DNA from: Eledone cirrhosa
Taxonomy: Eukaryota
Assembly (NCBI GenBank): GCA_964016885.1
Contig: OZ024741.1
Location: forward strand, 84,568,001-84,632,000
DNA: 64,000 bases
Reading direction: 5' to 3'
Below the pieces are notes generated by a model. That model did no database searches. It was not told the DNA's origin and saw only the letters and a program-made list of their open reading frames with translations. Numbering within the stretch: position 1 is the first letter of the stretch; every line of letters begins with the position of its first letter. This document shows positions 2,177-56,843 of this stretch, piece by piece. Made by a program: the position numbers and the translations under genes.

Positions 2177-2408
2177 AATATATACAGTATTTTCCGTTGT
2201 GTTGTAATATAAATATTACACACAGTAGATTGACAGCTCACGTAGAGTTTGCTCGACGGTTCCAGTTGTAGTTCCAAAAGTAATCCGGAGAAAAATAGAA
2301 AGATTTGAATGGATACAGTTTAGTTGAAAGGAATTTATTGACACGTGTTTCTATAACAGTTACATAACCTGAAAACAGCTGCTATCTACAAAGTATTAGT
2401 TATGCAGA

Positions 2409-2455
2409 CATTCAATATTTCAATGTTATTATTTACTGTCATTTCATCAGAATAA
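2409..2455 (-). ncRNA. Candidate minimal hammerhead ribozyme in PLE-1 pLTR
   Basis: CTGATGA-aatg..catt-GAAA-TA-TT; 4-bp stem II, weak stem I. Confidence 0.45.
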
Positions 2456-3049
2456 TATTACTGAGGACCTGTTTGGTTTTTATAGAGAATATTAGGAGGG
2501 AGGGGTGAAGTTGTCAGAAGAATAGTTGAGGGAGTGGTTTTTTGATAGCAGTGAGAATTTTTGGTGGCAGTGAGTAATTAGATTCCCATCTGTTGTTTTG
2601 ACATTTTTATAGAATATATTATTGGTTATTTTTCTAAATCTATAGAAGGATTAGAGATAGCAAAGATATGCGTGGTTGGTTTTGTGTTTGCACTTAATTA
2701 ACATTCAGACTTAAATTTTTCTTTCAAGTGTACGTATCCTTTCACCCACGCATTCACACACAAACATATTTGCACACCTCTACAAAATACATATACTCAC
2801 ATTCACATAGTAACATGTTCATACTTACATACATATACACTTGCATACATATATATATACACACATGTATTCATGTACATACACACGCGTTCATGTGTAT
2901 ACATTTTTATACTCAACTTATCTTTATATACACACGTATAGACACACACATATATATATACATACTCTAGTCTATGTGTATATATATACATATACATATA
3001 TATACATATATATACATATATATACATATATATACATATACATATATAC

Positions 3050-3102
<53 letters not shown>

Positions 3103-3384
3103 CACTTTAATACATGAATACACTTACATCTAACTATACACATCAAACATATATATATATATATATTTACTTATTTATATACATTTTCACATATATTTAC
3201 ATACTTATGGTCGCTTTTAGACACATTCATTATCGCATTTTTGCACCTATTCTCATCAGCATATCTTTCCATTATTAGTGTGGTAATTTGAGGTTATTAA
3301 TATACATATATATGTTGAGAAGAGATTGTTTTTATATTTTTCTAACTAGATTGAGGTTTATATAGTTGGGGGTATGTCCCTCTT

Positions 3385-5041
3385 TTATGTAATATTCGGC
3401 TTGTAGTGGGAAAAAAGGGTTTTAGTTCGGTGACGGCAGAATAATGTTCGTTCAATTCTGTTATTCAACAATTTCTTCTTGTGTGTGATTATGTAATAAA
3501 TCTCAAGATTACACAATTTGCAGAAATTTTGGCTCCTGGAAAAGCTTTGGGTTTTAGCTAATTTCTCCCATTTTAGGGTAAACTTTTGATCGCTATCCCT
3601 GAGCGTCCAAGCTTTTTCTGCTAAAGTTGTTACATTTCTTTGGCTCTGGTGTTTTATTGAGTAAGAATGCCTATATAATCGAGATTTAAACGATGTTGCC
3701 GTTGATCCCACGTAATACCACTCGTTGCCTCCGGATTTAATGGTACACTTATAAATAATATTTTTTTCCAGGCAGTTATTGCCGAGGGGGCAGTTGTCAG
3801 GATAGGTGCAGTTACAGTTGTGTACGTTGGGTTTTCTCTGGGGTAGTATTGCGGACGAACTTAGGTATGGTTTATTTATGTTCTGTAGTGTATTGTCTAC
3901 TGTTTTTTTTGTGTTCTTTGTACTTATGTTTTTAGTGTTTTCGTTTAACCTTCTAGTATTGATCTTTTTTATGTGTTGTTCAAGGTTTAACGCTGTAGAG
4001 TATGACAGTCTTATAGTGGTAGGGTTTAGAATTTTGTGGTATTTGTGTGATGTAGGAAAATGTCTCTTAATTATTTTAAAGAAGAGTACTGGTAAATTTG
4101 TACTAATGGAACTATTGTATTCGGGGTTATACCATAAGTACTCTTTGCATCGCTTTCTATTAGTTTTGTTTGTTGGTTTACTGGTGTGCATACTATGGTA
4201 GTAAGTGTGGTTTGGTGTTGTGTTATTATATCTACCTATGTGGGATTTATTTTGGGTGTTTTGATTGTTACCATCTATATACTCTATTTTGTTGAGGTAG
4301 CCTGCTTTACTAAGGGCGTTATCGTAGTACTCGGCGTGTTCCTTAAATACTTGTATGTTAGAAGATAGACCCCGAAATTCTAAGGGAAATATTTTTAGGG
4401 ATAGATTTAATTATAGAGATGGGGTGGTTAGACCCAACATTTACGTATTTGAGATTTTCATTCAATTTATGAAACGGTTTAATCAGACCAGAGTTTAAAT
4501 TGAGTGTGACATCCAGGAAGTTAACTACTTTAAGGTTGTATTCATATGTTATAGTTAGTCCTATTTCGAGTAGTAGTTTTCTTATATCTTTGCGTAGTTT
4601 TTCTAGTTTTTGGTTATTTAGGTTTTTAACTAGGAGGAGAACATTTTTCCTGGAGTCTAAAGGCGATAAATAACCCCACAATATCAGTTATTTCCGCCGA
4701 ATCGTTAGAGCCCATTGTTATGTCAAAGTTAGAGGGTTTATCTTTACGTACCCAATAACTGTTCTCGAATTTGACTATAGTTTTCCTAGCTTCTAATATA
4801 ATCTTAATTTCGTCGTTTGTAAGGTCAGAGTTATCCTTAGCAAACTTAATGGCTCTATTCAAAGTTTCAGGTAATATCGATGAGTAATATTCATCGATAT
4901 CAAACTGGATAAACTTAGATTTATTCTTATTGCTAATGCTATTAAACCATCTTATTGCTTCTCGGGTCTTCCCCCAGAGTTTAATGTTAACCTTAGCCTT
5001 AATTTGGGGGATGATACTATCTAAGATATATTTGCTTATTT
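3385..5041 (-). pseudogene. PLE RT plus GIY-YIG endonuclease, frameshifted and internally deleted
   Basis: FIQFDI..YYSSI, FDITMGSNDS, VNFLDVTL, CNC-x5-CPL linker, NIIYKC..YYVGST, CKLC..E..CRH; the YRDD segment is lost. Confidence 0.92.
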
Positions 5042-5329
5042 TATTACATAAAAGAGGGACATCCCCCCAACTATATAAACCTCAATCTAGTTAGAAAAAT
5101 ATAAAAACAATCTCTTCTCAACATATATATGTATATTAATAACCTCAAATTACTACACTAATAATGGAAAGATATGCTGATGAGAATAGGTGCAAAAATG
5201 CGATAATGAATGTGTCTAAAAGCGACCATATGTATGTAAATATATGTGAAAATGTATATAAATAAGTAAATATATATATATATGTTTGATGTGTATAGTT
5301 AGATGTAAGTGTATTCATGTATTAAAGTG

Positions 5330-5435
<106 letters not shown>

Positions 5436-6010
5436 TATATATATATAGATATATATATATAGATATATATGTATATGTATATATATACACATAGACTAGA
5501 GTATGTATGTATATATGTGTGTGTCTATACGTGTGTATATAAAGATAAGTTGAGTATAAAAATGTATACACATGAACGCGTGTGTATGTACATGAATACA
5601 TGTGTGTATATATATATGTATGCAAGTGTATATGTATGTAAGTATGAACATGTTACTATGTGAATGTGAGTATATGTATTTTGTAGAGGTGTGCAAATAT
5701 GTTTGTGTGTGAATGCGTGGGTGAAAGGATACGTACACTTGAAAGAAAAATTTAAGTCTGAATGTTAATTAAGTGCAAACACAAAACCAACCACACATAT
5801 CTTTACTATCTCTAATCCTTCTATAGATTTAGAAAAATAACCAATAATATATTCTATAAAAATGTCAAAACAACAGATGGGAATCTAATTACTCACTGCC
5901 ACCAAAAATTCTCACTGCTATCAAAAAACCACTCCCTCAACTATTCTTCTAACAACTTCACCCCTCCCTCCTAATATTCTCTATAAAAACCAAACAGGTC
6001 CTCAGTAATA

Positions 6011-6057
6011 TTATTCTGATGAAATGACAGTAAATAATAACATTGAAATATTGAATG
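6011..6057 (+). ncRNA. Candidate minimal hammerhead ribozyme in inverted arm of PLE-1
   Basis: CTGATGA 6016-6022, stem II aatg/catt, GAAA 6045-6048. Confidence 0.45.
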
Positions 6058-6168
6058 TCTGCATAACTAACACTTTGTAGGTAGCAGCTGTTTTCAGGTT
6101 ATGTAACTGTTATAGAAACACGTGTCAATAAATTCCTTTTAACTAAACTGTATCCATTCAAATCTTTC

Positions 6169-6200
<32 letters not shown>

Positions 6201-9512: not shown

Positions 9513-9559
<47 letters not shown>

Positions 9560-9722
9560 TTGTTATACTTTGGGAGGGTCATGTTGCCAATAAGAAACAC
9601 ACGCACCAGTTGCTTTCACTTCAATTTATTATATATTTATAAATTTATAAATTTACAAATCTACAAACTTATAAATTTCTGGTTGGTTGGTTGGTTCCAC
9701 AACCAGATAGTTGTTTATATAT

Positions 9723-9767
9723 AGTCATAGTCCTTTCGTCACACACTCTGTGACCTCTTCAGTGACT
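9723..9767 (-). ncRNA. Hammerhead ribozyme motif, left arm
   Basis: agtca-CTGAAGA-g-gtcaca..tgtgac-GAAA-ggac-TA-tgact. Confidence 0.7.
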
Positions 9768-10048
9768 GGGGATTCCTTTCTTTGTTTCTGTGCCTTTCCT
9801 TTCTTCTATCCTACGCCATTTTGTTTCTGTGTGTGTGTTGTGTGCTCAGTTTGCGCATGCGCCACATCCGGGTGTCTGTGTGTGTTTGTGTTCATTTATC
9901 TATTTGTTACAAATAGATAAATGAACACAAACACACACAGACACCCGGATGTGGCGCATGCGCAAACTGAGCACACAACACACACACAGAAACAAAATGG
10001 CGTAGGATAGAAGAAAGGAAAGGCACAGAAACAAAGAAAGGAATCCCC

Positions 10049-10093
10049 AGTCACTGAAGAGGTCACAGAGTGTGTGACGAAAAGACTATGACT
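10049..10093 (+). ncRNA. Hammerhead ribozyme motif, right arm
   Basis: agtca-CTGAAGA-g-gtcaca..tgtgac-GAAA-agac-TA-tgact; 5-bp stem I, 6-bp stem II. Confidence 0.7.
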
Positions 10094-10779
10094 ATATATA
10101 AACAACTATCTGGTTGTGGAACCAACCAACCAACCAGAAATTTATAAGTTTGTAGATTTGTAAATTTATAAATTTATAAATATATAATAAATTGAAGTGA
10201 AAGCAACTGGTGCGTGTGTTTCTTATTGGCAACATGACCCTCCCAAAGTATAACAATATCGGTTTCAACACACGATTTCAGATAAAGAATCTTGCTAAAC
10301 AAATTCAGAAACGAAATATATATATATATATATATATTTGCATGTATGTATATGTAAGTATGTTTGTATAGAAATAATCAGACAGATACACAGAGTGTGA
10401 TATTTATTTACTTATTAAATCAATTTAAACGTCCGTATATAACTAATAAACCATGACAGTCTATGGGAAGTGTCGACTACTCCTTACAGTTGGTAATCAA
10501 AAGACCTAGTGGAACAAGTAATAAAAAAATATTAAAAAGGGGATAAAAACAGAAAAAGAAATAAAAATAAAAGTTTCAAATATTAAAGCGCAATGGGAGG
10601 CTGATAATGCATAAGAAAACGAAAAAGAAAAGAAAAATAGGAAACAGAGTGCTGTAAAAGAGCTAGAAGTTTCTGTTGTTGAATGTTTTCGAAGCTTCCA
10701 TTTACTGAAATATTTTAATTATATATGGTAGACCTTCAACCATACATTGAACTTCCATTCTTGGTAGTTCTTTTAAAGA

Positions 10780-16262: not shown

Positions 16263-16311
<49 letters not shown>

Positions 16312-16438
16312 AAAGTTATATTTAAATTGTTGTGTTACAACTAGTAAATATTTATAACTGATATAAAAGCACTCGACAAATATTTGGAGTATATTTACAA
16401 TATTAAATAAATGGAAACTATATTTATAAAACCATATT

Positions 16439-16504
16439 TATTTCATTATATATATTTCAGGGATAACATATTAACAATATGCTATGCCTTCCTCAGACAA
16501 AATA
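16439..16504 (-). ncRNA. Hammerhead ribozyme, 3' pLTR of PLE-2
   Basis: tattttgt-CTGAGGA-agg.atagcatatt/aatatgttat.cct-GAAA-tatata-TA-atgaaata; 8-bp stem I, long stem II, palindromic minimal stem III. Confidence 0.8.
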
Positions 16505-17835
16505 CAATATAAACAGTTTTATAGATAAATAGATTCGACATACCGTAACAACATCTACTTGGGAAGGTTGATTTGGTTGTGACAAAATTGTACACAGAGA
16601 GAAAGAAAGAGAGAGAGAGAAAGAGAGAAAAAGATAGAAAAAAGGAAAGAAAGACAGAAAACGAAGAAAAAGAAAAAGAAGAAATGCATGGAACAAAATA
16701 GAGAGATGGAAAGATAGATAAAGAGAAGAAACTTCATGTAAAGAAACAGAGAGAGATATATATATATATATATAGAGGAAATAGAGATAGATACATATAT
16801 AAAAACTGTTGAATAACGTATCAATGATACATTTATTTATTTATCTATTTATTTAGCTCTAGTATTAATGTAAGGGAGATATATGGAGGGAAAACCAGCT
16901 GTTATATAGGGAGAGAAAAAATATAGAGAGAGAAAAAAAGAGAGAGAGAAAATTCAAAAATATCCAGACACAGGCGAGGCGTACAAACCTCTGTTTTAAT
17001 GTAGAGGTACTAGTATTTACAAAACCAGCCTCTGCATTGCAAATATCAGTATTCCTGAATGAGATATGTATCCACAATGTGTGAAAATTAATGATCTTAT
17101 GTTTAGTTTTTTAAAAAATTCATATGTTTATGTGATAATTACAAACATCTATGTGAATGTACATGATCAATTCTGCAAACCCTAAGTTCACGGAAAGTAT
17201 TCTCAATGCGGTATAAAAATTTAAGTATACATATATGTGTATATAGAGTCAAAATTACTATTTCCGTCTCTACTCTACAAGATTATCTATCAAGCAAAGA
17301 TAGAGCAGATTTCAACATACTAATAAAAATAAAAATATATCGGAAAACAAAACTAAACTAAAAATAACAATAATAATAATAAGTAATAATAAAATAGAAA
17401 ACTAAGAAATATTACGAAAGAATATTACATATTAAAAATATTACATATTAAAAATTTACATATTAAAAATATTAAAAAATAAAAATTAGGAAATACTACA
17501 GTAATAAAAATAAAATAAACCACAAAGATCAACCCTTCAAAATTAATTGACAATATATTGCCAAGTTCATTATAAACATCAGAGTCGAAAAACAGATAAA
17601 GCCAAAAATTATCTATCAAATCGCAGCCCAATTTGGTCTACATGTGTTCTTATATTTAATATAGAAGTTTATCTAGTGTAACATTTATTCGAAATATTTG
17701 GAGCATCAACTTTTAAGATAGCTTAATTTTCCATGAAGAATGTTTAAATAAATAAAATTAAAATAAAAAGAGTAAAAAGAGAATCAAAGATTTATCGGCT
17801 AGTTTCCCATATAATTATAAATCAAACTAAATATA

Positions 17836-20049
17836 CTACATTTTAAATTTAAATTTATACTTAAACGTTGAGTTTAATCTATGTTTGCAACAACTGAATA
17901 AATTTGTCCGTAGATTAAGGGAATTTTTAGATTTTAGTATAAAGAATATCTCCTCTGCGCAGAGGTCACATGTCTCAGAGGATGAATTAAAAGGAATCCC
18001 TCTTGAGACTATATTCCAAGCCGTCGAATATCTAACGTTATCTAGCTTAAGTTGCCATAGTACGCCTGATAGTGCCGTTGAAGATTTTTTACTTGGATCT
18101 GTGAAAGAATTCTTGTGGTTATTATAGCGAAGTTTAAATTCCGTCGATGTGGAACCGACGTAGTTAAAAGAATTAGAGTCAGTATTAACATTACAATTGT
18201 ATACTATATTTTTAACTAAGCAGTTGTTATTTAACGGACATTTAGATCTATCTCTACAGTTACATTTGTTAACTTTTATATTATTTATGCTGTTATCACT
18301 AGGTTTTAAGTTCCTATTATTTATTCTATTGATATTTTGTGCTAAATTTTTGGTGGATGAGTAGGTTAATTTAATTGTATGTCTATTGAAAATTGAGTGA
18401 TATCTATGTGTTCTAGGGAAGCGATTATCAAGAGCTTTAAAAAATAGTTTAGCGATGTGGATTTTAATGTTTAGTGAGAAAGGGGGGGCAAACCAAATTA
18501 TGTTCCTAGTTCTATTTCTTTTTTGGCCTTTGGAATTGTTGTAATGCTTTCTATTATAGTTGTTAAGGATGTTGCCGTAATTAAAAAAGTTGTTACTTTG
18601 TTTAGTTTGTCTATCATTATCTATGTACACAATCTTATCAGCATATCCTGCTCTAGCTAATGCTTCATTGTAGTATTGGGCTTTTTCGTCGAAAATCTTT
18701 CTATTCGACGAGATCCTAGAGATACGTTTTTGGACAGAGTTTACTATAGTGTTTTTGACAGATCTGGGGTGGTTAGAGTTAAAGTTTACATAGTTTAAGT
18801 TTTCATTCAACTTGTGAAAAGGATAGTGAAGACATGTGTTGAGATTTAATGTTATATCTAGGAAATTGACGATTCTATGGTTGTTTTCAATTTCTATTTT
18901 AAGATTAAAGTAATTAAAAAATTGTGTAATTTGTTTACATTTTCTATTTAGTTCAGAGTTATTATTATCAATAAGTAAAAGCATGTCGTCTCTATATAAA
19001 CCTCCGGTAGTACCGGGTATTTTCCTATGTAGCGAATTGATTAAAAATAAACCCACAAGGTCAGTTACCTGGGCTGAGTCGGATGGTCCCATAGTAATGT
19101 CAAAATTGCTATCTCTATCTGCTCTGGTCCATAGTTGGTCATTAAATTCAATCAAAGTTTTCCTAGCCGATAATATAATATGCATTTCATTGCTAGTTAG
19201 GTCAGTATGTTTGAATGCGTAATTTAGTGCCTTATTTAGTAGATTAGGGGTAATAGAAGAATAATAGTTAGCTATATCAAGTTGAATAAACTTATTATTA
19301 TTATTATATTTAATTTGCTTAAACCACTCAACGACTTCTCCAGTTCCCTTCCACAAGCTCAGGTTAGATAAACAATCCAAGTTCTTAATTTGCCGTATCA
19401 CCCTGTCAAGAATGTTTTTGCTTAATTTGCCCAGGTCCGATTTTGATGGTGCGATCAATCTAACTGGCAGGTCATTTTCAAAATTCCGCTTGTGATCTTT
19501 CATATTGATCTTCGGTTTCCTGGGCACGAAAGGTTGTGTTCTGTTCTCAATTTCCAACTCGTGCATTATACAAGATGCTTCAACATTCATTTTCTCAAGC
19601 TCGGCCTTATCTGCTACCTTGTACTTTTTCCTCAGCTCTTTCAGTATGAGGCCATTATACATGTCTTTCTGCACTCCATAGAGGTTGTTGGTCTTGTCAG
19701 ATTTCACCAAGATCTTCTCAGTTTTCTCTAAGCTCTCAATGTTATCCTTAATGCCTTTCAGATATTCCTGGCCTTTGAAGTTTCTCTTGAATTTGACCCC
19801 TTGTATGATAGAAATTATATCGTTTTCAAAGTCATATAAAAGTTTGTTAGGGGGTGGATTTCTTTTAGATTTGAAAACTTTGTTTAAGTCCGAGACATTT
19901 TCGTTTGTATTAGATTTATCAAAGTGGAATGCTCGCCACCTGATTCTCCTTATAAAAGAGTCAGATTTATCTATTAATTGTTTTATAAAGTCTTTGTTTC
20001 TAGGTAGAGGTATGTCTTTTAAAGAGGAAGTAATCTTAAAGAATTCCAT
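17836..20049 (-). CDS. Penelope-like RT plus GIY-YIG endonuclease, intact, 737 aa from ATG 20049
   Basis: QLDIANYYSSI, FDITMG, GGLYRDD, VNFLDITL, SNHP thumb, CNCRDRSKCPL linker, NIVY..YVGST..R.NNH, CDLC.EE, CKH; no stops. Confidence 0.95.
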   Translation of the reverse strand: MEFFKITSSLKDIPLPRNKDFIKQLIDKSDSFIRRIRWRAFHFDKSNTNENVSDLNKVFKSKRNPPPNKLLYDFENDIISIIQGVKFKRNFKGQEYLKGIKDNIESLEKTEKILVKSDKTNNLYGVQKDMYNGLILKELRKKYKVADKAELEKMNVEASCIMHELEIENRTQPFVPRKPKINMKDHKRNFENDLPVRLIAPSKSDLGKLSKNILDRVIRQIKNLDCLSNLSLWKGTGEVVEWFKQIKYNNNNKFIQLDIANYYSSITPNLLNKALNYAFKHTDLTSNEMHIILSARKTLIEFNDQLWTRADRDSNFDITMGPSDSAQVTDLVGLFLINSLHRKIPGTTGGLYRDDMLLLIDNNNSELNRKCKQITQFFNYFNLKIEIENNHRIVNFLDITLNLNTCLHYPFHKLNENLNYVNFNSNHPRSVKNTIVNSVQKRISRISSNRKIFDEKAQYYNEALARAGYADKIVYIDNDRQTKQSNNFFNYGNILNNYNRKHYNNSKGQKRNRTRNIIWFAPPFSLNIKIHIAKLFFKALDNRFPRTHRYHSIFNRHTIKLTYSSTKNLAQNINRINNRNLKPSDNSINNIKVNKCNCRDRSKCPLNNNCLVKNIVYNCNVNTDSNSFNYVGSTSTEFKLRYNNHKNSFTDPSKKSSTALSGVLWQLKLDNVRYSTAWNIVSRGIPFNSSSETCDLCAEEIFFILKSKNSLNLRTNLFSCCKHRLNSTFKYKFKFKM

Positions 20050-20226
20050 TTTCCAGTTATAATATAAAGCGCTCAACAATATTGGAGCAAGATATATGGA
20101 AAGTTATATTTAAATTGTTGTGTTACAACTAGTAAATATTTATAACTGATATAAAAGCACTCGACAAATATTTGGAGTATATTTACAATATTAAATAAAT
20201 GGAAACTATATTTATAAAACCATATT

Positions 20227-20292
20227 TATTTCATTATATATATTTCAGGGATAACATATTAACAATATGCTATGCCTTCCTCAGACAAAATA
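20227..20292 (-). ncRNA. Hammerhead ribozyme, upstream tandem pLTR of PLE-2
   Basis: Same sequence as 16439-16504. Confidence 0.8.
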
Positions 20293-21533
20293 CAATATAA
20301 ACAGTTTTATAGATAAATAGATTCGACATACCGTAACAACATCTACTTGGAAGGTTGATTTAGATAAACTTCTATATTAAATATAAGAACACATGTAGAC
20401 CAAATTGGGCTGCGATTTGATAGATAATTTTTGGCTTTATCTGTTTTTCGACTCTGATGTTTATAATGAACTTGGCAATATATTGTCAATTAATTTTGAA
20501 GGGTTGATCTTTGTGGTTTATTTTATTTTTATTACTGTAGTATTTCCTAATTTTTATTTTTTAATATTTTTAATATGTAAATTTTTAATATGTAATATTT
20601 TTAATATGTAATATTCTTTCGTAATATTTCTTAGTTTTCTATTTTATTATTACTTATTATTATTATTGTTATTTTTAGTTTAGTTTTGTTTTCCGATATA
20701 TTTTTATATTTATTAGTATGTTGAAATCTGCTCTATCTTTGCTTGATAGATAATCTTGTAGAGTAGAGACGGAAATAATAATTTTGACTCTATATACACA
20801 TATATGTATACTTAAATTTTTATACCGCATTGAGAATACTTTCCGTGAACTTAGGGTTTGCAGAATTGATCATGTACATTCACATAGATGTTTGTAATTA
20901 TCACATAAACATATGAATTTTTTAAAAAACTAAACATAAGATCATTAATTTTCACACATTGTGGATACATATCTCATTCAGGAATACTGATATTTGCAAT
21001 GCAGAGGCTGGTTTTGTAAATACTAGTACCTCTACATTAAAACAGAGGTTTGTACGCCTCGCCTGTGTCTGGATATTTTTGAATTTTCTCTCTCTCTTTT
21101 TTTCTCTCTCTCTATTTTTTCTCTCCCTATATAACAGCTGGTTTTCCCTCCATATATCTCCCTTACATTAATACTAGAGCTAAATAAATAGATAAATAAA
21201 TAAATGTATCATTGATACGTTATTCAACAGTTTTTATATATGTATCTATCTCTATTTCCTCTCTCTCTCTCTCTATATATATATATCTCTGTTTCTTTAC
21301 ATGAAGTTTCTTCTCTTTATCTATCTTTCCATCTCTCTATTTTGTTCCATGCATTTCTTCTTTTTCTTTTTCTTCGTTTTCTGTCTTTCTTTCCTTTTTT
21401 CTATCTTTTTCTCTCTTTCTCTCTCTCTCTTTCTTTCTCTCTGTGTACAATTTTGTCACAACCAAATCAACCTTCCCAAGTAGATGTTGTTACGGTATGT
21501 CGAATCTATTTATCTATAAAACTGTTTATATTG

Positions 21534-21599
21534 TATTTTGTCTCAGGAAGGCATAGCATATTGTTAATATGTTATCCCTGAAATATATATAATGAAATA
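21534..21599 (+). ncRNA. Hammerhead copy in inverted pLTR with core mutation CTGAGGA to CTCAGGA
   Basis: Same fold, G5 changed to C at 21544. Confidence 0.7.
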
Positions 21600-21763
21600 A
21601 ATATGGTTTTATAAATATAGTTTCCATTTATTTAATATTGTATATATATATATATACATATATATTCAATTGAAGAACGTTGGTTGATTAAAAATCTGCC
21701 GACGTTTTCTTGATGGATGTACAGATCTCCACGATTTTTGTTCATCCGGAGTTTTATTATAAT

Positions 21764-27839: not shown

Positions 27840-28241
27840 TTATGAGAAACAAAAACAAGTGTTACAGAAATCATGACGGCGTGATTATTCGCTTAATATG
27901 TGAGTGGACTCAAACAATTTTGTTCTGTGAAGAAACACACCTACTACCACAGCTGCTGCTACTTTATGACTTCATCTCTCTCTATATACACAAGAGTTCA
28001 TTCTCCAGTTTCCTGCCCAAAAAGGAGCCTAAAACATATTTTCCGTGCTATTTCCAACTTCACATTTTCTCTATAACCACTGTTTTGTATAGAACCTTAC
28101 TCCCCTTTTCTAATATATATATATTCATTTAAATAGGGTGGTTCACCACTGCATAGAACCAGTCTAGCCTCCTGTCATTTTAATCAATAATGTATATATA
28201 TATATATATATAGTTATGTAATAAACAACATAAGGTAATTA

Positions 28242-28302
28242 TTTCATTTACCAGTGGTTTCTTGAAAGGAAACAAATTTTGCTTTCAATCATCAGAATGA
28301 AA
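28242..28302 (-). ncRNA. Type I hammerhead ribozyme, left arm
   Basis: Reverse complement of 28388-28448. Confidence 0.85.
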
Positions 28303-28387
28303 AAATCCTGGTGTATTTATTGACATTGGATTTTAAATACAAAACATCTGTTTTTAAAATTCAATGTCAATAAATATACCAGGATTT

Positions 28388-28448
28388 TTTCATTCTGATG
28401 ATTGAAAGCAAAATTTGTTTCCTTTCAAGAAACCACTGGTAAATGAAA
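28388..28448 (+). ncRNA. Type I hammerhead ribozyme, right arm
   Basis: tttcatt-CTGATGA-ttgaaag..ctttcaa-GAAA-ccactgg-TA-aatgaaa; 7-bp stems I and II, GUA cleavage triplet. Confidence 0.85.
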
Positions 28449-29068
28449 TAATTACCTTATGTTGTTTATTACATAACTATTAAGCTCTGTAACCTACATA
28501 GAGCACTCTTTTATCCTGGACCTTTCCGACGGAATTACTTCACACACATATATATATTATATATATTGGTAAACGGAATAGAAAATGCTGACAAATTGTT
28601 CACAGTGAAAAATAGTTTAATTAGCAATAAGTGAGAATTAGTAATATTATTGGTTAGTATTCAGTTTTGGTTTTAAGTTTTACCGGTTGCGCATTTCTAA
28701 TGCTTTTCAAAAATAATTTTGAGATAGAGCGTCCGTGATGTTTGCTCTGATCTGATTAGTTTGGGGAATTCTACCTGTTTTTATGTTAAAAAAGTGGCTC
28801 CAGATGTATTAAAATAAGTTTTGCGCCAATTCGTGTTGCAAAAATTCTTGTGGTCAAAACAATTTTGATTGGTCGGTAGAGGTCATGTGAATTTAAAAAA
28901 TTGAATTTGCGCCAAATGTAGGTTTGTGTCGGCTGACTGAGAAATAAGTCTTTCACAACAAATATGTGTGTGTGTGTGTAGTAGTAGTAAAGAGGTTCGT
29001 TGTGATAATGGTCAGCAGGGATGTGTGTGCGAACCGCAGCCTGTTGACAGTTCAAATGCCTATTACGA

Positions 29069-44873: not shown

Positions 44874-44977
44874 GGGGTAACAAATGATTGTTGTAGGTAG
44901 TCCACTTAGGTGTAGTCCAGTCATGGTACTCCGGGTAGTGGATGATATCAACGCTTGGCTAAGTTTCACTCAACAAG
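44732..44977. repeat. Perfect palindrome: 105-bp arms around (TA)18
   Basis: 44732-44836 is the reverse complement of 44873-44977. Confidence 0.93.
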
Positions 44978-47418
<2,441 letters not shown>

Positions 47419-47527
47419 CATAGAGAGGGAAGGGGAGGGTGTTATACCATTATTTTATTGTAGCTTCCGTGTATATTGATTTACATGTTTACTTTGCTTA
47501 TATATATATATATAATGAATATATATA

Positions 47528-48341
47528 TATACAGACGTACAGTAGTATGTATATATATACATACATGCACACATATATATATGTACGTATGGATTTACCG
47601 AACATTTATTATAATGCTCGGTTTGTTTGTAAACAAACATTTCGAATTAAGCCGTACAGTGTCTAGCAAACATAGTTGCCCTTTTGTTCAACACTGACAA
47701 AGAAACGATGTACTAGTTTCAAGCTTATTACTTATCGTCATCAACGTATACCTTCCTGCCAGATGATTGAACGTCTAAAAGTATATACTTTCCTTATGCA
47801 TATTAATAGCTGAGCAGCCTAATTTGCATATCGAGTGAGTTAATCGGCCTGGCGCACCGAAAACGATAAATGGAAAAAATGAAACGAAATTTCATTTCTC
47901 ACTCTTAGTACGGCTGTTATTTAAATATAATTATGTATACGTACATACATATATGTATACATATATATATATGCTCAGCCGTTAATATGCATAAGGAAAG
48001 TATATACTTTCAGACGTTCAATCATCTGGCAGGAAGGTATACGGTGGTGACGATAGCTAATAAGCTTGGAACTAGTACATCGTTCCTTTGTCAGTGTTGA
48101 ACAAAAGGGCAACTATAGTTGCTAAACACTGTACGGCTTAATTCGGGATGTTTGTTTATAAACACACCGAGCATTATAATAAATGTTCGGTAAATCCATA
48201 CGTACATATATATATGTGTGCATGTATGTATATATATACATACTACTGTACGTCTGTATACATGTATGTATGTATACATACTTATATTTAAGTAACACCA
48301 GCCGTACTAAGAGTTAGAAATGAAATTTCGTTTCAATTTTT

Positions 48342-48344
<3 letters not shown>
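47528..48344. mobile_element. Permuted inverted-repeat mini-element
   Basis: A (47528-47816), x, B (47871-47950), (TA)n, A-rc (47972-48260), B-rc (48261-48344), (TA)n. Confidence 0.7.
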
Positions 48345-48396
<52 letters not shown>

Positions 48397-52071: not shown

Positions 52072-52353
52072 CTCAATAGTGACCCGACATATATATATAT
52101 ATATATATACATACATACATATATATATATATATACAAATAAAATACAGAGTTATTAACTCATATTGATATCTTGCAATTAAACAAGCTCAAAGTATAAA
52201 TACTGAGCATTATATAGTAATATATTTATAAATAAACACAGTAAATTTCGTGTCTAAAATTACGAGGGTAGAGAATGCCACAAATATTTTAAATATTTAA
52301 TCTTAAACATACAGTAGGATATCATTTTATACTGACCGTATCAAAAATATTTC

Positions 52354-52442
52354 ATCTCTCGGACAGATTAGAGATTTAATCTGTTTCGTCCTGAAAATTG
52401 TGTTTGTAACAAATAATCTGTAGGCTATCATCAGCGAGAGAT
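52354..52442 (-). ncRNA. Type I hammerhead ribozyme with full stem III
   Basis: atctctcg-CTGATGA-..-GAAA-cagatta/taatctg-TC-cgagagat; 8-bp stem I, GUC triplet, imperfect stem II. Confidence 0.8.
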
Positions 52443-52671
52443 TAGATCAAATGAAACAAAACACATCTAACAGCAACTGGAGGAGTAAAAATATGCTCCT
52501 CGTGGGCTGCACGCTATACGTGGTATGAGTGGTTATGCTAGAAATAATAGCCTTATTACACTCAATTACACACGAAATACAAATAAGATATAGAGTTATT
52601 AACTCATATTGATACCCTCATATTTTTACTCCTCCGGTTGCTGTTAGATGTGTTTTGTTTCATTTGATCTA

Positions 52672-52752
52672 ATCTCTCGCTGATGATAGCCTACAGATAC
52701 AAACACAGTTTTCATGGCGGAACAGATTAAATCTCTAATCTGTCCGAGAGAT
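52672..52752 (+). ncRNA. Hammerhead copy in inverted arm, GAAA changed to GGAA
   Basis: Same stems I and III; core damaged. Confidence 0.6.
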
Positions 52753-52886
52753 GAAATGTTTTTGATATGGTGAGTATAAAATTATATAATACTGTATGTT
52801 TAAGATTAAATACTTAAAACATTTGTGGCATTCTCTACCCTCGTAATATTTTAGACACGAAATTTACTATTTATATATACATATAT

Positions 52887-52917
<31 letters not shown>

Positions 52918-52922
<5 letters not shown>

Positions 52923-54900
52923 GGAAGCAGAAAATTGCTTATTGTGATCCAGTTCGTGGTTAAGAAAGCCAGTTTCATGGACGGTTTCAACGTACGGTTA
53001 GGGGTAACTCCACAAGTTTGTAAGAATTCCGTTCAATCTTGGAGTATAAAGTATGAAAGAGAAAACACAGGTAAGCATTAAGAGAAGGATTTTATCCAGG
53101 TATTTACGACCGTTTTATTGGTAAGTGCAACCTTATATTGCTATACTGCAAATAGCAGCCACTCAATTATAATTGTTGTTCACGTCCAAATTTTCAAAAT
53201 AGTGAGTAAGTTACTCTTGAAATAGTTCGTAATATATAGAGTAAAACATATTTTTGGAATTGTATTTACTAGACATATATTAGACATAGTGATAGCACAA
53301 ATGAAGAATAAACTTGTGATTAAACTATGGGGTAACGCTACCGAAACAATTAAGTGGTTTAACAATATAGCTAACAAAAAAGTATCTAAATCTATACAAT
53401 TTGACATTAACGACTATTACTCCTCTATATCCCGCAACACCTTGGATAAAGTCTTAGCATTCGCCAAAGCCAATTCTGACCTAACAGACGACGAGATAAA
53501 AATCATATTAGCTGCTAGGAAAACAATAATTAAATTTGAAAACGCCTATTGGGAACGTAAGGATAGATTATATAACTTTGACATCACGATGGGAGCTAAC
53601 GACTCGGCTCAAGTCACAGATTTAGTAGGTATTTACATAGCCCATAGTTTACAGAGTGAGTTTAGCGACCTTCACGGTGGAATCTACAGAGACGACGCCC
53701 TTCTCCTAGTTAAGAACCTAAATAACCAGAGCATAGAAAGACTCCGTAAGAATATTAGAAAGACTCCCGGGAAACTAGGCCTTAGCGTATGAGTATAGCA
53801 CTAAAATAGTTAACGTATGAGTATAGCACTAAAATAGTTAACTTTCTAGACGCGACGCTTAACCTAAATACGGGACTTATAAGACCTTTTCACAAGATTA
53901 ATGAAAACTTAGCATACATCGACTGTAACTCAAACCACCCACTATCCATAATTAAATCCATTCCACGCGGCATATCCCTTAGGATCTCCCGCCTCTCGTC
54001 TAACCGACAAATCTTCGAGGAACATGCAGAATACTACAATACCGCATTAGACAAGGCAGGCCACTTATATAGAGTAGAATATATATATGAAAGCCTCTGC
54101 AAAGCGCACACGAACACGCATAACACAAACTCCAGAAACACACGCACACGCGCACTTACGCATAGAACTACAAAGTATACGGTAAATAGAAATACAACAT
54201 CGAAACCAAACAAGTCACGCAGTAGAAAATATATTTGGTATAACCCCATATTTAACACCTCTATTAGTACTAACCTACCCTCTACCTTCTTTAGAATAAT
54301 AAATAAGCACTTTCTAGATTCACATAGATACAGCAAAATCCTTAACACTAAATCTATTAGACTATCTTGCTCCACGGCACCAAATATAGAGGCACACATT
54401 AAGATGCTTAACGCTAAAAAGATAAATAACAACACCAGAACACAAATTTACAACAATAACAATACAATCACCATTGAACACAACAGAATATCTAATACAC
54501 AACCACCCACTAATAGGCAAACAAAACGTAACACACTTGTACAGGCATCGCAGGCCACCAATAATGCAAAAGTTGCCCATGACAAGAATTGTAACTGCCA
54601 CCTACCTGAAACCTGTCCATTACATAATGAATGTATGCAGTCTAACCTGGTTTACCAATGCACAGTGGAATCAGACAACCAGAAATGGTATTACATCGGA
54701 GCCCGTTGGTATACACACCGTTACGCAATGAAACATTCCCAGCATCGTTATGTAAATACCCTTGCAAACAAGACCTGGCACCTGAGGGAAAGTAACCATC
54801 AATACACCCTGAAGTGGAAAAAATTATCGAACGCGCCCCCATATCGGAGTGGTATGAGAAGCTGTCGATTATGTGACCTTGAGCTGTTCCACATTTTGAG
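52918..54900 (+). mobile_element. PLE-6: truncated Hydra-clade-like element (about 53262-54900) preceded by a probable inverted pLTR/tail (52918-53260)
   Basis: IQFDINDYYSSI, GGIYRDD, CNCHLPETCPL, NLVY..YYIG, CRLCDLE; 28-bp duplication at 53786-53841; close to the PLE-1 and PLE-5 proteins. Confidence 0.88.
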
Positions 54901-56843
54901 TTCCACACATCTCGTGTAGATAGAAAATGCTTTTTCCTTTCTTCGTAACGAAGTCATTCTGTTCTATGTTGCCGAAAGACCTCCTTCATCCCCTTCTTTT
55001 ATTATTTCTTCTGTTAAATTTTGGAACATTTTTTTTCTCATCCAGTCCAAGTTTATCGTCAATTGAAGTCAACGCTACTATCTTTTGGCTAGGGTCAGGC
55101 AACTGAAATTGTCTCCCCGAGTTCGATGTAATGGGAGAGAAAACACAAGAGCACTTGTGGTGATGGTGGTGTACCTGTAGTGGATGGTGGTAGGGGTGAA
55201 ATTTATGGTTGTGATTGTAGTGATGTAAGTGATGGCGGTGGTGTATGTGATTGTGGTTGTGTAAGTGGTGGTGAGGGAGTAATAATAAAGCTTCTGAGAA
55301 AATGTTTTGTAGCATTTCATTACGTTGCCTAGTGATAAGGGTGGTGGACTTACGATCAGAATGTGTGTGTTCAATTCCTGGACTGGGTTGTGTGTACTGT
55401 TCTTGTGGAAAATACTTCATTCCACGCTGCCACGTACACTCAGCTAGAAATGAGCACCAGCAATAGCTGGGAGATTAGCCCTGCGAGGGACTGGCATATT
55501 GTCGAGGGGTGAGTCTTGTAAACTCAGTCATTTCATGCAACGGAAACCGGGGTAAGCACAGGCTTGATGAGCCTTCGTGTTTGAGACAGACTTTAGACAT
55601 AAACTTTACGTTCTGAATTCAAATCATCTCGAGAGCAACTTGATTTTTAATACTTCCGAGATCGATGAAATTTAGTACTAATCTGTGTCGATGTAATCAA
55701 ATATCCCCTACTTTGATATTGTTGACTTTCTGCCAAAATAAGAAATCATTAAGTCATATATTAGTTCAATACCAGCCGAGGTCAACTCTCGGAGTCGATA
55801 TAATAGAATACCTGTGGAGTATTGGGATTGACTAATTGGATGTGTCTGTCTGCCACCCCCACACAAAATCCTGGTATTCTGCCTAAATTAAGAAAATATA
55901 AGTACGAAATTATATATTTAACTAAAGATCATTATTCTTGATTACATTGATAATTAAATCTCAATATAATGTATTTTGTTAAAAATATGATCATAAAAGA
56001 GTTAAGTCATGCGATTTCATTTGTTGTTCTTTTCGATTAAGTTACACCTGACTTTGATATATGTAGCAGAAGAGGATATAGGCTAAATCAATTTGATTTC
56101 ACCAGCGAGCTTAACGCATTAGCCTAGATTAATGTATTATTTATTAGAAAGGCATAAGTCTTCAGAATTTATCAGATATGAGAAATAACGATTTATAACG
56201 CTCGGTCGTTTTTCTAGAGTTTTGTAATATAAATGTGATAAAATGTTTCCTTATGAGAAGGAAGATACACTGTCGCAATTTCGGCTGCTCTGAAATTTCA
56301 CATAATGGCTCGTTTCAATTAAATGTTGCATCTATCAATTTCTAATTTAAGCTTCAGGCGAGCCAGTTTACACTTGAATGGTACTTTAATCTATCACCCC
56401 GGGAACGATGAAAGGCAAAGTTGACCTCAAAATTATTTGAACTGAGTGTGTAAAGAGCGAGAACAAATAATGGAATGGCATTTTAAAATGTTGCATATAT
56501 TTATGACAAATATGTAAAACAAACATATATTGAATGAATGAGGAGACCACTATGCGCTAAAATATCAACCAAATCATCTCATATTTTACCGTTATTATTT
56601 TAAAGGTTACATTAATTACTATTATGCACGTAGCTATTCTGTCGAAACCATGGGTGGTATGCCGTTGATCATATGAGTTCTAGATCAGAGCTAGTCTAGG
56701 GCTGAATAATTGGTAAAACTCTCCCATTTGACATCCCATCGTTTACTCAACTTGCGTTCCTCCATCTCTCTCTGTCTTACTATTTCTTTATTTCTCCGTC
56801 TTCCATTCTTTTTTACTATTTATACGTCACTAATACATATATG

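What the first reader, a model, noticed from the sequence alone, without database searches (positions are those of the whole stretch)
52133..52895. 444-bp ORF-less unit that reproduces the tandem-plus-inverted PLE layout, with a full-stem-III hammerhead
Seen: the tail end (52133-52170) recurs 444 bp away (52577-52614), directly followed by the inverted arm. This is the PLE-2 layout with the ORF missing, so simple 5' truncation does not explain it. The HHR has an 8-bp stem I, 7-bp stem III and GUC triplet, so it could be active as a monomer. Inference: a non-autonomous retrozyme copied from a circular or concatemeric RNA of about 444 nt.
Basis: partly seen in the sequence, partly recalled or inferred. 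Interest (0 to 1): 0.72.

Follow-up and report, generated by a model that had tools for sequence, protein, structure and literature searches.

The report
Penelope-copied ribozyme repeat with altered core
This is one damaged copy of a protein-free 463-base repeat present at hundreds of places in this animal genome; it carries an unusually built, predicted self-cutting RNA motif and was likely pasted in by the enzyme of a Penelope-type jumping gene, a known kind of parasite in a new variant.

Summary
It is one insertion of a dispersed, ORF-less family: 92 distinct elements examined, 420 exact hits of one end motif. The family unit is 463 nt; this copy lost 19 nt, hence 444. Insertions sit mostly in (TA)n as two head-to-head arms ending at two fixed sites about 78 nt apart (38 of 42 use one of each). 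That is the Penelope two-start 'tail', so the tail is 78 nt, not 38. No ORF-bearing parent was found.

The hammerhead is not canonical. All 76 readable cores carry 2-3 extra bases after A9, and both window copies are mutated, so activity as a monomer is untested. Arms run through the cut site (2 stops in 97 passes) but never reach two laps (0 of 54), and no arrays were found. A circular template is plausible, not shown.

An abundant SINE has inserted independently at one nucleotide beside the second start site in about 35-60% of intact copies.

Verdict: new variant of animal non-LTR retrozymes / non-autonomous Penelope-like elements, likely moved by Hydra-clade enzymes. This scan noted the same kind of element on other DNA of this genome.

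The parts
52088..52132 (.). left (TA)n/(CATA) target tract
   Evidence: sequence; 56 of 66 outer A ends are followed by a TA run
52133..52618 (-). long arm: family positions c1-c463 plus c1-c42 again, 3' end at fixed site A (52133); 19-nt deletion near 52572
52133..52210 (-). 78-nt tail between start site B (52211) and start site A (52133); two predicted hairpins (52208-52187, 52165-52144)
   Evidence: 0.04-0.05 differences per site between subfamilies
52208..52211 (-). site B end; the SINE hot spot lies between 52209 and 52208 and is empty in this copy
52354..52442 (-). type I hammerhead-like motif: stem I 8 bp, two extra bases after A9, stem II with about 30-nt loop (one mismatch here), stem III 7+1 bp; predicted cut between 52362 and 52361
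52443..52464 (-). strand just 5' of stem I that can pair with loop 2 (16-18 bp; pseudoknot or inhibitory fold, inferred)
52619..52895 (+). inverted arm, about c143/148-c427, 3' end at fixed site B (52895); damaged hammerhead 52672-52752
52896..52918 (.). right (TA)n target tract
   Evidence: sequence

Best explanation
This is a non-coding 463-nt repeat unit with a hammerhead-like fold, inserted as two head-to-head arms that end at two fixed sites 78 nt apart, and it was likely copied into TA repeats by the reverse transcriptase-endonuclease of Hydra-clade Penelope-like elements from an RNA that likely behaved as a closed one-unit circle. Steps: (1) a copy holding more than one unit is transcribed (inferred); (2) two hammerheads cut out a monomer that is ligated (inferred by analogy with retrozymes, untested); (3) the enzyme nicks both strands of a (TA)n target, each 3' end primes cDNA, one at site A and one at site B, each about 11-12 nt 3' of a predicted hairpin (ends shown, enzyme inferred); (4) both cDNAs run through the cut site and the unit junction, often stop at c450-c10 and stall soon after one lap (shown); (5) they are joined head to head (shown as structure). 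I put the class (non-autonomous, PLE-mobilised) at about 0.9 and the circle step at about 0.55-0.6 given the class.
For: Ends: of 157 outer 3' ends 66 are A, 55 B, 6 a CA-primed variant, 30 other; A+B 38, A+A 1, B+B 3 (p 6e-8). This matches the two internal RT start sites that define the PLE tail (PMC11167929) and the window's Hydra-type PLE, whose tail is 86 nt. Hydra families insert in (TA)n. No ORF: 97 of 100 listed copies that pass end A continue as the unit, by eye, 39 of 100 continue, 60 end and 1 is an internal join; blastx of the unit against five window PLE proteins gave nothing. Selection on the RNA: between five subfamilies the hammerhead and tail differ at 0.04-0.06 per site and the spacers at 0.17-0.27; position 7 varies U/G/C while the core holds; one stem I pair changes U-A to C-G in subfamily f. 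Closed-unit template: 54 of 168 arms exceed one lap; only 2 stops in 97 passes of the cut site; both laps are nearest the same subfamily in 11 of 13 loci; circular folds score z -2.9 to -3.9 against 40 shuffles.
Against: No arm reaches two laps: 0 of 54 where about 31% would under a constant stop rate (rate from a by-eye count), and only 5 exceed 1.5 laps. 5' ends pile up four-fold at c450-c10 (p 3e-7), which could be an RNA start. The 2-3 extra core bases may slow or abolish cleavage (a 2-nt insertion elsewhere in the core impaired one natural hammerhead, PMC3088659 passages). In vitro a Penelope enzyme used uncleaved RNA. Covariation is weak: no two-sided change in A1; 2 pairs in A2, 298 of 500 shuffles as high. 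No PLE with a homologous terminal repeat was found, so the helper is inferred from layout and target only.
Confidence: 0.55

Rival explanations
1. Same class of element, but the template is an uncleaved linear RNA starting near c450-c10 (a TATA-like TATATAAT lies about 30 nt upstream, at site B) and ending beyond c42. It is terminally redundant like an LTR transcript, and longer arms arise when the cDNA jumps at the redundancy. The hammerhead would be slow or serve as a protein dock.
For: Four-fold stop cluster at c450-c10 and no arm of two laps; the window's long arm is exactly c1 to c42 of the next lap; uncleaved RNA is the main substrate in vitro; Penelope has a promoter inside its pLTR (PMC2377424 passages); chimeric junctions with another retrozyme family in 3 loci suggest the enzyme switches templates.
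Against: Short A arms of 43-50 nt stop at the same place (8 of 65), where a hairpin and short palindromes could stall or join cDNAs without any RNA start. About 19 of 65 A arms and 15 of 58 B arms run past the cluster. The hammerhead is conserved across subfamilies up to 19% apart.
Confidence: 0.33
2. The copies are only 5'-truncated ends (pLTR stubs) of an autonomous PLE that was not sampled.
For: Such stubs are common for PLEs (PMC4209133); DNA searches score only 40 candidates and pattern lists show only the first 100 hits.
Against: Copies pass end A straight into the next lap of the unit, not into an ORF: 97 of 100 and 39 of 40 non-terminal hits; all 19 subfamily-f loci fetched lack an ORF joined to the unit.
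Confidence: 0.07
3. The family once formed long rolling-circle arrays, which have since collapsed by recombination to fewer than two laps.
For: Copies are 2-9% from their subfamily majority, so there has been time; earlier AI notes describe many-lap arrays for younger families here (unchecked).
Against: Collapse should keep the fractional lap, yet only 5 of 54 long arms exceed 1.5 laps; a 1.87-lap arm has persisted (L034).
Confidence: 0.05

Closest known systems
Animal non-LTR retrozymes (Cervera and de la Pena 2020, PMC7229834, parts 2-4 of 6 read; Li, Clavereau, Pollet 2026, 10.64898/2026.07.22.740005, parts 1-3 of 5 read)
   Same: Non-coding unit of a few hundred bases, type I hammerhead, GC 33-35%, genome rich in PLEs, many dispersed monomers, PLE origin proposed.
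   Different: No arrays (under two laps); head-to-head arms with PLE start sites; 2-3 extra core bases, long stem III, large loop 2; circular RNA and cleavage not shown here.
Penelope-like elements: PAc/Poseidon two-start tail (Frangieh et al. 2024, PMC11167929, parts 1-2 of 4 read); Hydra clade (Craig et al. 2021, PMC8557442, passages, section 11, File S1 rows)
   Same: Partial tandem plus inverted 5'-truncated arm, two fixed 3' ends, (TA)n target, hammerhead upstream of the ends.
   Different: No ORF; tail 78 nt rather than 30-40 (the window's Hydra copy has 86); no sequence match to any PLE terminal repeat that I saw.
PLE hammerhead variants (Cervera and de la Pena 2014, PMC4209133, parts 1-2 of 4 read) and pseudoknotted hammerheads (Perreault et al. 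2011, PMC3088659, passages)
   Same: An unpaired base between positions 9 and 10.1 is typical of PLE hammerheads; G10.1-C11.1 is kept; loop 2 can pair with the stem I extension.
   Different: Two or three extra bases instead of one; a stable 7-8-bp stem III rather than a minimal palindrome; 16-18 possible pairs with loop 2.
Non-autonomous Chlamys elements such as MRC1 (PMC8557442 passage)
   Same: Non-autonomous PLE derivatives that form pLTRs and head-to-tail insertions.
   Different: Those resemble autonomous partners at their 3' ends; that clade lacks canonical hammerheads.

Membership tests
Animal non-LTR retrozyme | Non-coding unit of about 150-450 (up to 972) bp, GC under 50%, no LTR | tested here: met
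   463-478 nt, GC 0.33-0.35, longest ATG frame 44 aa
Animal non-LTR retrozyme | Type I hammerhead in each unit | tested here: inconclusive
   Three stems and core present, 62 of 92 copies intact, but 76 of 76 readable cores have 2-3 extra bases; no Rfam match
Animal non-LTR retrozyme | Tandem repeats with at least two consecutive hammerhead units | tested here: inconclusive
   6 of 136 arms hold two cut sites; three same-strand pairs and no run of three among 97 hits; no arm of two full laps
Animal non-LTR retrozyme | Self-cleavage and expression as circular RNA | not testable with these tools
   Needs RNA work
Penelope-like element (autonomous) | ORF with RT and GIY-YIG endonuclease | tested here: not met
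PLE-mobilised element | Two fixed 3' ends separated by a tail; inverted 5'-truncated arm | tested here: met
   A 66, B 55 of 157 outer ends; A+B in 38 of 42
PLE-mobilised element (Hydra type) | (TA)n target | tested here: met
   TA run after 56 of 66 A ends and 33 of 55 B ends
PLE-mobilised element | Sequence shared with the terminal repeat of an autonomous partner | tested here: inconclusive
   None found in the window's PLE or, which list only the first 100 hits each
Plant LTR retrozyme | LTRs with type III hammerhead, 4-bp target duplication | tested here: not met
   Type I topology, no LTR pair

The most novel reading that the evidence does not exclude
The family is a retrozyme lineage that kept a deliberately slow, protein-switched hammerhead (2-3 extra core bases, loop 2 clamped by a long helix), so that Hydra enzymes copy just over one lap of its RNA from two start sites; and the same start site B is an exposed or element-nicked DNA site that SINEs exploit in about half of all copies. 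It would be a natural read-out of where a Penelope enzyme or promoter acts on its own DNA.
Probability: 0.15. Interest if true: 0.72.

Novelty: new variant of a known kind. Interest (0 to 1): 0.44.

Why it matters
That animal retrozymes are moved by Penelope-like elements has been proposed from co-occurrence and terminal-repeat homology. Here the insertions themselves carry the two-start footprint, one start per strand, in an ORF-less family. The family also tests how PLE tandems are regenerated: it wraps its unit but stops short of two laps, which separates a circle from strand transfer once RNA is examined. The core variant is a ready biochemical substrate that Rfam misses. The SINE hot spot is a rare case of dozens of independent insertions at one nucleotide. 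The kind of element is already described, so the gain is mechanistic detail.

Tried and rejected
No RNA holder listed for the unit; three runs of unknown kind, one sample, were laid as contigs and show only that the family and its junction exist there. Rfam: no hammerhead hit. Pfam: no PLE domain hit for the window's PLE proteins; clade assigned by motifs RWR, DKT, CxCX5C. Parent search: the window's PLE terminal repeat has no similarity; relaxed hammerhead pattern gave 118 hits, the 100 listed all family; a pattern for a putative ancestral stem II gave one unrelated hit; subfamily f is also ORF-less. A SINE-carrying master copy was rejected: 5' ends, duplications and SINE subfamilies differ, and 13 of 14 near-full SINEs at site B are closest to unrelated genomic SINEs. 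Exclusive targeting of the SINE to this family was rejected (117,532 SINE ends genome-wide). RNA-editing scars: no strand bias, A>G 45 vs T>C 54. An intron (AG/GTGAGC donor) was considered; the candidate acceptor and donor are not kept in all subfamilies and no RNA is available. A parent locus for the L092 chimera was not found among 40 scored of 907 candidates. The bacterial promoter scan is irrelevant and at chance level. Lap-versus-lap and arm-versus-arm divergence overlap (0.01-0.08) and do not separate circle from concatemer. Literature: searches found no description of this family, of a 2-3-base insertion after A9, or of such a SINE hot spot. File S2 of PMC8557442 (Hydra hammerheads) was not among the held text and the preprint's supplements are closed; both could bear on novelty.

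Full report
Observation. The element lies between two (TA)n tracts. A 38-nt repeat recurs 444 nt apart, and an inverted arm follows at 52619 (90% over 287 nt). The left copy has a stem II mismatch and the right copy has GGAA for GAAA. Rfam sees neither.

Family. A search of the own genome with the unit gave 120 matches from 40 scored of 1934 candidates. Exact motifs gave 97 and 118 hammerhead cores, 163 passes beyond end A and 420 copies of the last hairpin. By eye about 60 of the 100 listed are ends, so about 250 insertions match exactly; I estimate several hundred in all. The majority unit is 463 nt; the window copy lacks 19 nt. At least six subfamilies exist, 7-19% apart, with copies 2-9% from their own majority. 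The sample is biased to long and well-preserved copies.

Anatomy. I classified 92 distinct elements with 168 arms (overlapping loci and elements cut by a locus end were dropped). Of 157 outer 3' ends, 66 fall at site A (c42), 55 at site B (c427), 6 at a CA-primed variant and 30 elsewhere. Where both ends are A or B, 38 of 42 have one of each (p 6e-8). TA runs follow 56 of 66 A ends and 33 of 55 B ends. Each site lies about 11-12 nt 3' of a predicted hairpin. In a Penelope element tested in vitro, reverse transcription starts at two internal sites and the sequence between them is the genomic tail (PMC11167929). The window's autonomous element at 16304-21648 has the same layout with an 86-nt tail; its protein has the RWR, DKT and CxCX5C motifs of the Hydra clade, which targets (TA)n. 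It shares no sequence with the unit.

No parent ORF. Of 100 listed copies that pass end A, 97 continue as the unit; two of the other three join a second retrozyme-like family. Nineteen loci of a 12-16% diverged subfamily have no ORF joined to the unit.

Ribozyme. Of 92 hammerhead copies, 62 keep CUGANGA, GAAA and UC. All 76 readable cores have extra bases between A9 and G10.1: AA 36, UA 22, AAU 16, two others. One extra base there is typical of PLE hammerheads (PMC4209133); I found no report of two or three. Between subfamilies the hammerhead differs at 0.056 per site and the tail at 0.04-0.05, the spacers at 0.17-0.27, so successive source copies kept both. The strand 5' of stem I can form 16-18 pairs with loop 2; changes there mostly keep pairing (U-A, U-G, C-G at one pair), but none is two-sided against the commonest pair and the overall covariation is not clearly above shuffles. 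It may be a pseudoknot of the kind known from other hammerheads or an inhibitory fold. Activity is untested.

Template. Arms cross the cut site 97 times with 2 stops, no more than elsewhere (p 0.42), so a cleaved linear monomer was not the usual template. Fifty-four arms exceed one lap, and both laps belong to the same subfamily in 11 of 13 loci, which calls for copying from one monomer or a sibling. But none reaches two laps (longest 867 nt), against about 31% expected at the first-lap stop rate. 5' ends cluster four-fold at c450-c10; the window's long arm ends there. A ligated circle on which the enzyme stalls when it meets its own cDNA fits these results. So does a linear, terminally redundant RNA that starts near c1 and allows strand transfer. 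I favour the circle modestly, because the ribozyme is conserved and short arms also stop at that site.

SINE hot spot. Many copies carry a 185-nt tRNA-like SINE in antisense at one position, 2 nt from site B. Its likeness to octopus SINEs is recalled, not tested. Matched exact patterns give 72 occupied and 49 empty sites, shorter ones 142 and 194, fetched loci 33 and 62. Pattern counts of occupied sites include some arms that end at B. The SINE has 117,532 exact ends genome-wide and prefers C^ATTAT. In flanks 14 SINE ends stand against 120 CATTAT sites, so the excess is at least three-fold (p 6e-5). Insertions are independent and some are much younger than the host (a few site-B copies were mislabelled genomic by the script, but the nearest neighbours cited come). 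Local sequence may explain much of this: non-family sites with the same 16 letters were too few to judge (about 3-5 occupied and 7 empty per 100 listed, by eye).

Links to the enzyme. Three loci (L013, L137, L140) join this unit directly to another hammerhead family without a TA tract, as a template switch would. In L092 a young Hydra-type insertion with arms 99.7% identical ends inside a copy of the unit, once at B; priming in a transcribed UA tract explains this equally well. These are hints only.

Comparison. The element works like an animal non-LTR retrozyme and bears PLE insertion marks. It meets the size and non-coding criteria, only partly the tandem criterion, and the circular-RNA criterion is untested. 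A 2026 preprint already argues that such retrozymes are non-autonomous PLEs. Earlier notes of this scan describe several two-armed families in this genome; none matched this sequence. I score it as a new variant of a known kind, interest 0.44.

Noticed in passing
family position c429/430 (window 52209/52208, empty here); L004, L006, L008, L009, L012, L013, L023, L026, L028, L031, L045, L060, L098, L110, L125, L127, L128: Independent antisense insertions of an abundant tRNA-like SINE at one nucleotide beside start site B, sometimes twice in a row or in both laps; 35-60% of intact sites.
   Followed up: partly
L013:1100-1560, L137:2847-3894, L140:2431-2930; window 47494-48393: A second hammerhead repeat of about 420 nt, also present in the window as two arms, is joined directly to this unit in three loci, as after template switching.
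   Followed up: partly
L092:2314-6967 (to 7024): Young 5'-truncated Hydra-type PLE with one frameshift whose 1077-nt inverted arms (99.7% identical) include a copy of this unit.
   Followed up: partly
window 16304-21648: Hydra-type PLE with an open 755-codon frame (17836-20103, minus), partial tandem plus inverted arm 99% identical, minimal hammerhead and 86-nt tail; Pfam gives no hit.
   Followed up: partly
window 53226-54919, 44881-46074, 2295-6171: Further broken PLE copies of other families; the first lies 330 nt right of the element and is not joined to it.
   Followed up: no
window 9557-10259, 28210-28480: Other palindromic two-armed insertions with different hammerhead motifs.
   Followed up: no
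G000:C4:203808619-204486270: Six copies with the same SINE junction spaced about 130-155 kb apart, probably a large tandem duplication.
   Followed up: no
L121-L139: Subfamily f, 478 nt, with three extra core bases and tighter pairing between loop 2 and the strand 5' of stem I.
   Followed up: yes
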